Part shown: in pieces, positions 32,589-41,030 of the stretch | Position numbering within the stretch: the stretch's first letter is position 1 | How the letters are laid out: the number at the start of each line of letters is the position of its first letter | Assembly: GCA_030599585.1 (NCBI GenBank) | Contig: JAUVNS010000002.1 | Coordinates: forward strand, 192,001-256,000 | DNA from: Promethearchaeota archaeon | GTDB taxonomy: Archaea > Asgardarchaeota > Lokiarchaeia > Sigyniarchaeales > SOKP01 | Direction of reading: 5' to 3' | DNA length: 64,000 bases | The notes under the pieces: generated by a model | Seen by the model: the letters and a program-made list of their open reading frames with translations, nothing else | Told to the model about the DNA's origin: nothing | Database searches by the model: none | Program-made: the position numbers and the translations under genes

Positions 32589-33251
32589 TTGAAAATGTTT
32601 TTTGGTAAAAGATTTAGTGGACATGAAGGCGAAATCTTCTCAGGGTTGGATATCTTAGTACTTTCTCTTATAGAAAACTACGACGGTATCTCTGGATACG
32701 ATCTCGCTCGGAAAATAAACAAGAAATTCAATAAACTTTGGCACGCATCTCCTGGCACAATTTATCCTTTACTAAACAGATTAGCTAAGAAAGGCTTTAT
32801 TGCAATGGAAGTAGTAACCAGAAACAATCGAAATATTAAATTGTATAGAATTACGAAATCAGGACAAATAAGATTAAAAGAAGTTCTCAAAAGCAATTTA
32901 GAACCAAGTATAGACACGCTTGGAGAATATCTTAGAACTATAGTTCAAACTTGGATTCCTGATGAAGATCGCATACATAGTATGATGTCTTGCTTTCCAT
33001 TTCACCGAGAGCAATCACATAGAAACATAGATAAGGAAGATTACTCTATAGCGAACATTGAACGTGTAAAAAGAAGATTAGATGAACTGAATTTTTCTAA
33101 AACCAAGATATCTAAAAGATTGGATCATATTGGTAAAAAAATCTCTCATTACGAAATATTACTAAGTGATCTGAATGTTAAGCGAAAAGAGAATACAAAA
33201 ACTATAGAAATTGTTGACGATGACGAATATGAGGCTTCCAAAAAACCTTAG
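32589..33251 (+). CDS. PadR-family transcriptional regulator with C-terminal extension
   Basis: SGYDL, W..SPGTIYPLLNRL..KGFI, KLYRITKSG. Confidence 0.9.
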   Translation: MKMFFGKRFSGHEGEIFSGLDILVLSLIENYDGISGYDLARKINKKFNKLWHASPGTIYPLLNRLAKKGFIAMEVVTRNNRNIKLYRITKSGQIRLKEVLKSNLEPSIDTLGEYLRTIVQTWIPDEDRIHSMMSCFPFHREQSHRNIDKEDYSIANIERVKRRLDELNFSKTKISKRLDHIGKKISHYEILLSDLNVKRKENTKTIEIVDDDEYEASKKP

Positions 33252-37748: not shown

Positions 37749-38606
37749 TTACAATTGCCTCCTTTTGAATAAAATTGCTGCTAGCAAGAAACAAGCAACG
37801 ATATATACGAGCAATAGCGTCGTTCCCATAAAAATACTAGGGGTTGCCCAAGAACCGAATGAAAAATCACCACCTCCCATTCCAGGAGGACCCATCCCTC
37901 CGAACGAAAACTCGGCATATCTAGGATCTGGAAATGGATTTAGCAATATTGAGGTAACTAAATTACCCAAATATGCTAATGAGTATAAGGGTTCAAATGC
38001 GTCTGCAAATATTAAATTAATAATCTGGTCAGCTATGTTAAATCCCATAAGAAGAATAACCAAGGTGATTATGATTGTAATATTTACATTTTTCATAAAA
38101 GAACTGAATAGGGTCACAAAGCTGCTTAACGCTATAACATATAATACAGCAAATCCGAACGAATAAAATATCCGAATGTTAATAGGTCCACCATAATATA
38201 AAAACCCAAAGAGTCCGAGTATAAAATAAAACACTGCAACAATGAATACCACAAGTATTAGATTTCCAAGATACTTTCCTATAATCAATTTGTATTTGTT
38301 TATTTTTGGAAAGACAATAAAACCAGTTCTTTTGTTGAACTCAGAACAGATGATACCCGAAAAGAATAAACACGCCGCAAATAATGTTATGAACGAGATA
38401 AAGTTCAAACCGCTACTAAAGAACTCTGCTTGTGTATCTGCTAAAAGAAAGTCCGGAAACAATTGCAAAATATAACCCGTTAACACTGCAATTAAGATTG
38501 AAATTAGTGTAAAAAAGTAGAGTTTTTTTCTCTGTTTTTTCATTTCAAAGATTATCGTGTGATATATTGGCGATAATCCAATAAAAGTCTTATCTTCATT
38601 ACGCAT
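37749..38606 (-). CDS. ABC-2 type exporter permease
   Basis: Six TM segments, IICSEFNKRTG, GKYLG, C-terminal FKRRQL; ATG 38606 follows the ATPase stop. Confidence 0.85.
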   Translation of the reverse strand: MRNEDKTFIGLSPIYHTIIFEMKKQRKKLYFFTLISILIAVLTGYILQLFPDFLLADTQAEFFSSGLNFISFITLFAACLFFSGIICSEFNKRTGFIVFPKINKYKLIIGKYLGNLILVVFIVAVFYFILGLFGFLYYGGPINIRIFYSFGFAVLYVIALSSFVTLFSSFMKNVNITIIITLVILLMGFNIADQIINLIFADAFEPLYSLAYLGNLVTSILLNPFPDPRYAEFSFGGMGPPGMGGGDFSFGSWATPSIFMGTTLLLVYIVACFLLAAILFKRRQL

Positions 38607-40248: not shown

Positions 40249-40267
40249 AAGGCGTCACTCTAAAAAT

Positions 40268-40339
40268 TGTATCGATTATTTTTATTAAAATCGAAATGTA
40301 TCAGTTATCGATATAATGGATATATCGGTTTCCGTTATA
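40268..40339. promoter_or_regulatory. Candidate PadR operator boxes (TATATCG-N5-CGATATA-like)
   Basis: TGTATCAgttatCGATATA (40297-40315), TATATCGgtttcCGTTATA (40321-40339), half-site TGTATCG at 40268. Confidence 0.55.
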
Positions 40340-40729
40340 AACTTTGATCTTCTAATTAATTAGAATTTCAATACCTCAACCGATTAATCCTAGCTTTATT
40401 AGCTTAATTAAGTTAAATGATTTAGCGTTACATAAATTCAATAGTAACGAGAAAAAATTTAGGATTTTGCCTCAAATTTAAAATTGTGGAAATTAATTTG
40501 TAGAAAAGAGAAAAGGGTTTTATTATGAATAGATAGAAATTTCTGAAAAGAATTTACGTAAAATCATTTGACTTCTTAAAACTAGTATAATACGCTTAGA
40601 TATATTGTTCGTGAAATCTATGAGTGTTTCGAGTATATTATTCTAGTATTATATTAATATATTATTCTGTTTTCTCGACTAAATATTAAAAATAACAGTT
40701 TTAACAATTCATAAGGTGGTTTGAAAAAG

Positions 40730-40923
40730 TTGAAGTTAATAACCTGTCATGTGCCCGAATTCATTTGAAATTTCTTCAAATTTGAAGGGAAGCTTATCTG
40801 GCAGGAATTGAAGATTTAGTAAATCTGAATATATACCCAAACCGATCTGAAGTTATCAGAGTTGCGATTCGAGATCTCTTAAAAACGGAGTTAAGCACAG
40901 TATTTCATAGGAAACAAGAATAA
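40730..40923 (+). CDS. Ribbon-helix-helix (CopG/Arc/MetJ; CdrS/aCcr1-like) transcription factor split by a 32-nt insert; join(40730..40759,40792..40923)
   Basis: Joined product MKLITCHVPE|AYLAGIEDLVNLNIYPNRSEVIRVAIRDLLKTELSTVFHRKQE (53 aa) has the beta-strand-PE, helix A and YPNRSE.IR.AIRDLL signature; AGGTGG RBS upstream; T tract after the stop. Confidence 0.85.
40760..40791 (+). other. Candidate bulge-helix-bulge (BHB) mRNA intron, 32 nt
   Basis: Central helix CCCG(40754-57)/AGGG(40786-89), bulges AA^U and AA^G, intron stem UCA/UGA plus UUUGAA/UUCAAA. Cutting after the 2nd bulge nucleotide on both strands restores the frame exactly. Confidence 0.7.
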
Positions 40924-41030
40924 TTTTTTTTTTCCTTTCTTTATTATTTTTATTCTTCTTCGAATATAGCCAATTGAAAATCTTATTTTACTGAACAGTT
41001 TTTTATGCTACACTGTGTTATATAATTTCA

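What the first reader, a model, noticed from the sequence alone, without database searches (positions are those of the whole stretch)
40754..40797. Possible splicing-gated regulator (HAC1/XBP1-like logic); alternatives are ribosome bypass or a dead insertion
Seen: the insert is frame-breaking, separates the DNA-reading beta-strand from the two helices, and leaves only a 12-aa peptide (MKLITCHVPEFI) if retained. It is also bounded by matching GAA codons (40757-59 and 40789-91) around a hairpin. Established: eukaryotic HAC1/XBP1 bZIP mRNAs are switched on by non-spliceosomal cleavage plus a tRNA ligase. Small RHH proteins with an NRSE.IR.A motif (haloarchaeal CdrS, Sulfolobales aCcr1) control cell-division genes. 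T4 gene 60 and mitochondrial byps use matched take-off and landing codons around a hairpin. Inference: output of a possible cell-cycle regulator could be coupled to tRNA-splicing capacity, an analogue of unconventional splicing control. Competing readings are a GAA-to-GAA translational hop, or a 29-nt insertion with a 3-bp target duplication that pseudogenised the gene.
Basis: inference. Interest (0 to 1): 0.8.

Follow-up and report, generated by a model that had tools for sequence, protein, structure and literature searches.

The report
tRNA-type mini-intron in Asgard regulator gene
A 32-base insert that breaks a small transcription-factor gene of an Asgard (Lokiarchaeia-type) archaeon has the shape the tRNA-splicing enzymes cut, and related genomes indicate it is removed from the messenger RNA; in the papers I could search this is documented inside an archaeal coding sequence only for cbf5, but nothing shows that it acts as a regulatory switch.

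Summary
The insert is real: 32 nt (40760-40791) in a 53-aa ribbon-helix-helix (RHH) gene. It folds as a relaxed bulge-helix-bulge (BHB) whose cuts restore the protein exactly. Nine of 110 orthologues carry an insert at this codon (30-40 nt, divergent, 6 changes on the tree). All nine keep BHB geometry at the cut that restores the protein, all have a strong exon-exon helix that intronless orthologues mostly lack, and exon 2 is under purifying selection. The downstream triplet is not Glu in three of them, which argues strongly against a GAA-to-GAA hop and a target-site duplication. The genome encodes a broad-specificity two-subunit EndA, RtcB, and similar inserts in uL11, uS3 and Elf1. Verdict: an EndA/RtcB-spliced mRNA intron (about 0.88; no RNA seen). 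The HAC1/XBP1-like switch is unlikely (about 0.12): the intron is patchy, near-identical sister proteins lack it, the retained peptide is not conserved, and housekeeping genes carry the same kind of insert. The protein is CdrS-like but is one of four paralogues, none beside ftsZ. A ~43-nt upstream tract seems to have arrived with the intron, hinting at spread by gene conversion. This scan found such introns before in many other Asgard genes and genomes.

The parts
40714..40719 (+). Shine-Dalgarno-like AGGTGG, 10 nt before the TTG start
   Evidence: sequence; a GGTG/GGGG-type motif precedes orthologues
40730..40759 (+). Exon 1: TTG start plus codons 2-10, the RHH beta-strand up to Glu10
40760..40791 (+). 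32-nt intron (frame-shifting; in-frame TGA at 40766-68)
   Evidence: BHB cut positions and orthologue comparison
40792..40923 (+). Exon 2: helices A and B of the RHH protein, stop TAA 40921-23
   Evidence: Pfam RHH_1; pN/pS 0-0.19 among intron-bearing genes
40754..40757 (+). 5' strand of the central BHB helix (CCCG), pairing with 40786-89 (AGGG): three C-G pairs plus G.A
   Evidence: C-G pair probabilities about 0.75; G-U, G-C and U-A variants in orthologues
40758..40760 (+). 5' bulge AA^U; predicted cut between 40759 and 40760
   Evidence: BHB geometry
40786..40789 (+). 3' strand of the central BHB helix (intron-encoded)
40790..40792 (+). 3' bulge AA^G; predicted cut between 40791 and 40792
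   Evidence: the intron-side bases vary across orthologues and in public contigs
40761..40785 (+). Intron hairpin: 40761-63/40783-85 and 40764-69/40775-80
40743..40749 (+). 5' arm of the 7-bp exon-exon helix, pairing with 40799-40805
   Evidence: pair probability 0.90-0.95; strong in all 9 intron-bearing genes, weak in most intronless ones
40799..40805 (+). 3' arm of the exon-exon helix
40720..40794 (+). Putative converted tract (about 43 nt of spacer, exon 1 and the first 3 nt of exon 2, plus the intron) resembling a distant intron-bearing lineage rather than the sister clade
   Evidence: site patterns; boundaries chosen after inspection
40924..40933 (+). T-run after the stop codon, probable archaeal terminator
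   Evidence: sequence; inference

Best explanation
The insert is a tRNA-type (BHB) intron in a protein-coding mRNA. The nascent RNA folds into an exon-exon helix, a 4-bp central helix with two 3-nt bulges, and an intron hairpin. The two-subunit splicing endonuclease EndA cuts after the second base of each bulge (40759/60 and 40791/92), and RtcB joins the exons, giving the normal 53-aa RHH transcription factor. The intron is a labile, probably near-neutral passenger. It has been gained and lost repeatedly at this site, at least once apparently by gene conversion that brought about 43 nt of upstream flank with it, and it is tolerated because splicing is largely constitutive. Shown here: the insert, its geometry, the covariation, selection on the exons, and the enzyme genes. 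Inferred: cleavage and ligation in the cell, constitutive splicing, and the conversion route.
For: (1) All 9 insert-bearing orthologues have at least 3 of 4 central pairs at a cut restoring P-E-A-Y, although lengths run 30-40 nt and cover all three phases. Shuffling the intron letters reaches the observed geometry in 0.1-2.8% of trials per gene. (2) The central helix covaries: C-G versus U-A at the third pair, and G.A, G-U or G-C at the fourth. In L037 the whole motif is shifted by one base, with a perfect 4-bp helix, and the cut still yields Glu-Ala. (3) Exon-exon duplex energy is -8.5 to -12.4 kcal/mol in all 9, against a median of -2.4 (minimum -8.4) in 91 intronless genes. Each intron lineage beats its intronless sister. 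With other windows 2-7 of 91 overlap, and control windows elsewhere in the gene show no difference. (4) Exon 2 has pN/pS 0-0.19 within intron-bearing clades. (5) The genome has two EndA paralogues; the catalytic one is closest to Aeropyrum pernix EndA and keeps the K44/R46 loop that confers broad specificity (PMC3241643). RtcB is present and so are many intron-containing tRNA genes. (6) The same genome has a canonical 28-nt BHB insert in the only uL11 gene found, and 30-nt stop-containing inserts in uS3 and Elf1 with 3-of-4 BHBs. (7) cbf5 introns are often relaxed BHBs cut by hetero-oligomeric EndA (PMC2738675).
Against: No spliced RNA was seen for this gene. The window's own central helix has only 3 of 4 pairs, a class that arises by chance at many boundaries (bioRxiv 10.64898/2026.10.13.758758). 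The minimum-energy fold leaves the pairs flanking the 5' bulge partly open, and the explicit BHB model is about 5 kcal/mol above it. In several orthologues a register slid by one base scores as well and would give a frameshift. The nine genes are only 5-6 independent lineages. The duplex window was first chosen after inspection.
Confidence: 0.88

Rival explanations
1. Splicing-gated regulator (HAC1/XBP1-like): the intron is spliced, but splicing is conditional and sets the level of a cell-cycle transcription factor. This is an addition to the best explanation, not an alternative to it.
For: The host is a transcription factor, and retention leaves only the beta-strand. Five of the nine central helices are imperfect. 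Orthologues often start at weak codons (ATA 24, ATT 11, TTG 10, ATC 3 of 100), suggesting tight dosage. The exon-exon helix begins 13 nt after the start codon. A negative-regulator role was proposed for the cbf5 intron (PMC2738675).
Against: The intron is in 9 of 110 orthologues, with 6 changes on the tree; sisters with near-identical proteins lack it (L004/L006, L062/L036, L092/L038). The retained peptide is not conserved (12-30 aa). Housekeeping genes in the same genome carry the same kind of insert. The nuclease appears to be the tRNA EndA, not a signal-activated one. No ftsZ linkage; CdrS and aCcr1 cut-offs are not met.
Confidence: 0.12
2. Programmed ribosomal bypass from GAA 40757-59 to GAA 40789-91 (T4 gene 60 or byp-like).
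For: Matched GAA codons around a hairpin in this genome and in four other insert-bearing genes (L002, L003, L034, L038).
Against: The landing triplet is AAA, GTA or AGA in three orthologues and GAG in a fourth. The codon after take-off is TTC, an ordinary codon (14 per 1000), not a stop or unused codon. The nascent peptide is only 10 aa. A hop does not explain the covarying central helix or the selected exon-exon helix.
Confidence: 0.02
3. Dead insertion (29 nt plus a 3-bp target duplication) that pseudogenised the gene.
For: GAA direct repeat in this genome; three intact RHH paralogues exist; some genomes of the genus gave no orthologue match.
Against: The duplication is absent in four orthologues. 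Exon 2 is intact and under purifying selection in every insert-bearing genome while the inserts themselves diverged in length and sequence. No dispersed copies of the insert.
Confidence: 0.04
4. The insert is removed or bypassed by another route (a different nuclease, DNA-level excision in part of the population, or re-initiation giving a helix-only protein).
For: The motif is relaxed and there is no direct RNA evidence.
Against: The geometry fits the EndA rule (cut after the second bulge base) in all nine genes. Exon 1 stays conserved. Exon 2 has no ATG, GTG or TTG at its start.
Confidence: 0.05

Closest known systems
BHB intron of the cbf5 pre-mRNA in Crenarchaeota (Watanabe 2002; Yokobori 2009, PMC2738675)
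   Same: Short intron inside a coding sequence, often a relaxed BHB, cut after the second bulge base by a hetero-oligomeric EndA; patchy through gain and loss.
   Different: Asgard host; a transcription-factor gene; several such inserts in one genome; repeated same-site turnover with an apparent co-converted flank; splicing shown for cbf5, only inferred here.
Non-canonical tRNA introns of Asgard archaea (bioRxiv 10.64898/2026.10.13.758758)
   Same: About 30 nt, BHB boundaries, two-subunit EndA, many recent gains, repeated use of the same sites.
   Different: That work covers tRNA genes only and finds no general arrival route; here the host is an mRNA and one gain shows a mosaic flank.
Haloferax HVO_1309 5' UTR BHB intron (Schwarz 2020, PMC7714728)
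   Same: EndA-processed mRNA intron.
   Different: Lies in the UTR and does not break a reading frame.
HAC1/XBP1 unconventional splicing (own knowledge)
   Same: Non-spliceosomal removal of a short frame-breaking intron from a transcription-factor mRNA; RtcB is the ligase in animals.
   Different: There a stress-activated nuclease (Ire1) cuts two 7-nt stem-loops and the intron site is deeply conserved; here a BHB for the housekeeping tRNA endonuclease, present in about 8% of orthologues.
CdrS (haloarchaea; PMC7439475) and aCcr1 (Sulfolobales) RHH regulators
   Same: Small RHH with the NRSE-x-IR-x-A motif; the best NCBIfam hit is CdrS (37.7 bits).
   Different: Far below the family cut-offs (100 and 60 bits); four equally scoring paralogues; no RHH gene of this family next to either ftsZ.

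Membership tests
Archaeal BHB (EndA/RtcB) intron | Two 3-nt bulges 3' of a 4-bp central helix, with cuts after the second bulge base | tested here: met
   Relaxed form in the window (3 of 4 pairs); 4 of 4 in L003, L034, L036 and L037; same geometry in all nine
Archaeal BHB (EndA/RtcB) intron | Flanking helices (exon-exon and/or intron) | tested here: met
Archaeal BHB (EndA/RtcB) intron | Excision restores the conserved product, which is under selection | tested here: met
Archaeal BHB (EndA/RtcB) intron | Broad-specificity EndA and RtcB encoded | tested here: met
Archaeal BHB (EndA/RtcB) intron | Spliced RNA or excised intron observed | not testable with these tools
   No RNA run was listed for this stretch
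HAC1/XBP1-type regulated splicing | Host is a transcription factor that is inactive when unspliced | tested here: met
   RHH by Pfam; retention leaves 12 aa
HAC1/XBP1-type regulated splicing | Intron conserved across the lineage that uses the switch | tested here: not met
   9 of 110 orthologues, 6 changes on the tree
HAC1/XBP1-type regulated splicing | Dedicated signal-activated nuclease (Ire1/KEN domain) | tested here: inconclusive
   PF06479 not found, but no control genome rang either
HAC1/XBP1-type regulated splicing | Condition-dependent splicing | not testable with these tools
   Needs RNA across conditions
Translational bypass (T4 gene 60, mitochondrial byps) | Matched take-off and landing codons | tested here: not met
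   Matched in the window but not in L035, L036 or L037
Translational bypass (T4 gene 60, mitochondrial byps) | Stop or unused codon directly after take-off | tested here: not met
   TTC, 14 per 1000 codons
CdrS | NCBIfam NF058555 cut-off (100 bits) | tested here: not met
   37.7 bits for the intronless orthologue L004; paralogues 33-37 bits. The model is haloarchaea-specific, so this is a weak test.
CdrS | Synteny with ftsZ2 | tested here: not met
   Both ftsZ genes lie on other contigs than the four RHH paralogues; the neighbours here are PadR/ABC and a Na/Ca exchanger
aCcr1 | NCBIfam NF053762 cut-off (60 bits) | tested here: not met
   22.3 bits
CdrS / aCcr1 | Controls cell-division genes | not testable with these tools
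   No binding or expression data

The most novel reading that the evidence does not exclude
In the insert-bearing Lokiarchaeia lineages the BHB intron has been co-opted as a conditional switch, so the amount of a CdrS-like cell-cycle transcription factor depends on tRNA-splicing capacity: a prokaryotic analogue of HAC1/XBP1 control in the closest relatives of eukaryotes.
Probability: 0.1. Interest if true: 0.88.

Novelty: new variant of a known kind. Interest (0 to 1): 0.66.

Why it matters
In the papers I could search, splicing inside an archaeal coding sequence is documented for one gene (cbf5). This case adds well-controlled comparative evidence that Asgard archaea, the closest prokaryotic relatives of eukaryotes, splice protein-coding mRNAs with the tRNA machinery, including a transcription factor and probably ribosomal proteins in the same genome. 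That supplies the raw material from which RtcB-dependent HAC1/XBP1-type control could evolve, even if this intron is not itself a switch. It also means that some Asgard genes that look like pseudogenes are intact. The selected exon-exon helix is a simple new test for such introns, and the mosaic flank is a testable clue to how BHB introns arrive, which a 2026 preprint on Asgard tRNA introns calls the central open problem.

Tried and rejected
No RNA holder was listed for the stretch, so expression and splicing were not tested. The four runs laid were contigs of unknown kind from relatives; they showed a variant insert and intronless relatives, not a splice junction. A metagenome pattern scan was too unspecific: none of the 80 loci encoded the gene. 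A de novo genome-wide BHB scan gave as many hits for the true geometry as for a mirrored control (1240 versus 1246 loci), so no genome-wide count is claimed; three housekeeping cases were checked by hand instead. A simple BHB score over all nearby cuts does not always rank the restoring cut first, so single-genome geometry alone is not proof. The search for an Ire1-type nuclease was uninformative. The sigma-70 promoter scan was at chance level and does not apply to archaea. Class and phylum searches listed no split orthologue outside this family, but most phylum matches were not displayed. One weak LAGLIDADG match exists elsewhere in the genome; it was not linked to this intron. Other excisions (29 or 35 nt, or cuts in a 3-bp-helix register) add or remove a residue or shift the frame relative to 101 intronless orthologues and were rejected.

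Full report
Observation. A TTG at 40730 behind AGGTGG opens a frame that stops at TGA 40766-68 after 12 codons. The rest of a ribbon-helix-helix protein lies in another frame to TAA 40921-23. Removing 32 nt gives a 53-aa protein. The insert has no other copy in the genome.

Geometry. In the archaeal BHB each 3-nt bulge lies 3' of a 4-bp helix and the cut falls after the second bulge base. Applied here: central helix 40754-57 with 40786-89 (three C-G pairs and one G.A), bulges 40758-60 and 40790-92, intron helix from 40761, and a 7-bp exon-exon helix 40743-49/40799-805. The cuts remove 40760-40791 and restore Pro-Glu-Ala-Tyr. Pair probabilities are 0.9-0.95 for the exon helix and about 0.75 for the C-G pairs; the explicit model is about 5 kcal/mol above the minimum-energy fold. 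A 3-of-4 motif is permissive, so one genome would not be enough.

Orthologues. I fetched 110 orthologous loci (100 from the family, 10 from the order). 101 are uninterrupted. Nine have an insert after the same Glu codon: five in the window's genus and four in another genus, 30, 30, 30, 31, 32, 32, 39, 40 and 40 nt long. All nine block the protein if retained; those that are multiples of three carry stops. All nine have at least three central pairs at a cut that restores P-E-A-Y, four have all four pairs, and shuffling intron letters reaches the observed geometry in 0.1-2.8% of trials per gene. The helix covaries: where the Pro codon is CCT the intron partner is A; the fourth pair is G.A, G-U or G-C; in L037 the motif is shifted one base and the cut still yields Glu-Ala. 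The triplet that reads GAA at 40789-91 in the window is GAG, AAA, GTA or AGA in four of them, and contigs from other public runs show yet another base at 40791. So the GAA repeat is not a landing codon or a target duplication; those bases belong to the intron.

Selection. Exon 2 has pN/pS of 0-0.19 among insert-bearing genes and 0-0.08 against close intronless sisters, so the gene is alive. The duplex between the exon flanks is -8.5 to -12.4 kcal/mol in all nine, against a median of -2.4 in 91 intronless genes, reached by different sequences in different lineages. Wider windows leave 2-7 of 91 overlapping, and control windows elsewhere in the gene show no difference. Pairing of the two exons, specific to intron carriers, is what cleavage-and-ligation needs and what a hop or a dead insertion does not. 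The intronless sister L004 keeps much of this helix (-7.9), which suggests it lost the intron.

Machinery. The catalytic EndA subunit is closest to that of Aeropyrum pernix, keeps the catalytic Tyr, His and Lys, and has Lys and Arg aligned to K44 and R46 of the loop that confers broad specificity (PMC3241643). RtcB is intact. Following leads from earlier scan notes, I checked three other genes of this genome. uL11 is split by a 28-nt canonical BHB insert. uS3 and Elf1 hold 30-nt stop-containing inserts with 3-of-4 BHBs that restore the frame. A cell whose ribosomal-protein genes need this step must splice mRNA routinely.

History. On a tree of upstream DNA plus spliced coding sequence the intron needs six changes, with carriers nested among intronless genes (short alignment, bootstrap not fully settled). 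In the window's clade, about 43 nt from the SD to just past the splice site match a distant intron-bearing lineage (11-14 sites) rather than the sister clade (3 sites), while the flanks show the reverse. The tract includes a longer spacer and a change of start codon from ATA to TTG. The boundaries were chosen after inspection, and selection for the exon helix could explain part of it but not the spacer. I read it as probable gene conversion carrying the intron in; this is inference.

Is it a switch? The intron is in about 8% of orthologues, sister genes with 96% identical protein differ in having it, the retained peptide varies from 12 to 30 aa, and housekeeping genes carry the same kind of insert. 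The protein's best NCBIfam hit is CdrS, but at 37.7 bits against a cut-off of 100, no better than its three paralogues. None of the four lies near ftsZ, whereas synteny with ftsZ2 defines the CdrS locus (PMC7439475). The family is Asgard-wide (377 of 400 genomes), so an important role is plausible but untested. Weak start codons, imperfect helices and a helix 13 nt behind the start codon leave room for a passive damping of expression. I put a true regulated switch at about 0.1.

Comparison with what is known. Published cases are cbf5 (PMC2738675) and one Haloferax 5' UTR intron (PMC7714728). A 2026 preprint describes repeated gains of BHB introns in Asgard tRNA genes, does not treat mRNAs, and leaves the arrival route open. 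Five literature searches found no report of Asgard coding-sequence introns; subscription journals are mostly not covered. This scan has noted such introns in many other Asgard genes, two with claimed RNA support that I could not check; I treat those as leads only.

Verdict. Observation confirmed. Best explanation: an EndA/RtcB-spliced mRNA intron, labile and probably spliced constitutively (0.88). Hop 0.02, dead insertion 0.04, other route 0.05; regulated switch on top of splicing about 0.1. New variant of a known kind; interest 0.66.

Noticed in passing
L005-L020, L039-L054, L086, L092 and other orthologues: Many orthologues of this RHH gene can only start at non-standard codons: of 100 genes, ATA 24, ATT 11, ATC 3, TTG 10, GTG 2, ATG 50, behind a strong SD. 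The paralogue in L242 also aligns from an Ile at position 1.
   Followed up: partly
G000:C28 about 32730-32757 (L234/L235): uL11 is split by a 28-nt insert forming a canonical BHB (4 of 4 central pairs, both flanking helices); the cut restores the protein.
   Followed up: yes
G000:C11 about 38119-38148 (L236) and G000:C32 about 69753-69782 (L237): uS3 and Elf1 each hold a 30-nt in-frame insert with stop codons and a 3-of-4 BHB; the uS3 intron hairpin has 10-11 bp.
   Followed up: yes
L074 (G073:C18), L068 (G070:C1), L112 (G062:C32): Tandem or partial duplicates of the RHH gene next to the main copy; the copies in L068 and L074 look degenerate at the 5' end.
   Followed up: no
G004, G010, G014, G019, G128, G131, G134, G001: Eight genomes of the genus, some over 90% complete, gave no orthologue match with this query; either unassembled, lost, or interrupted elsewhere.
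   Followed up: no
window 40250-40710: A long AT-rich stretch between the divergent PadR/ABC-transporter operon and the RHH gene, conserved in order in many genus members, with a conserved element upstream of the SD that could be the promoter or an autoregulatory site.
   Followed up: no
G000:C8:35148-35291: Weak LAGLIDADG_3 match in a 335-aa open frame; it may be an intein or a free homing endonuclease.
   Followed up: no
G000 tRNA genes: Several tRNA genes are longer than normal and mis-assigned by ARAGORN, consistent with introns at non-canonical positions or double introns.
   Followed up: no
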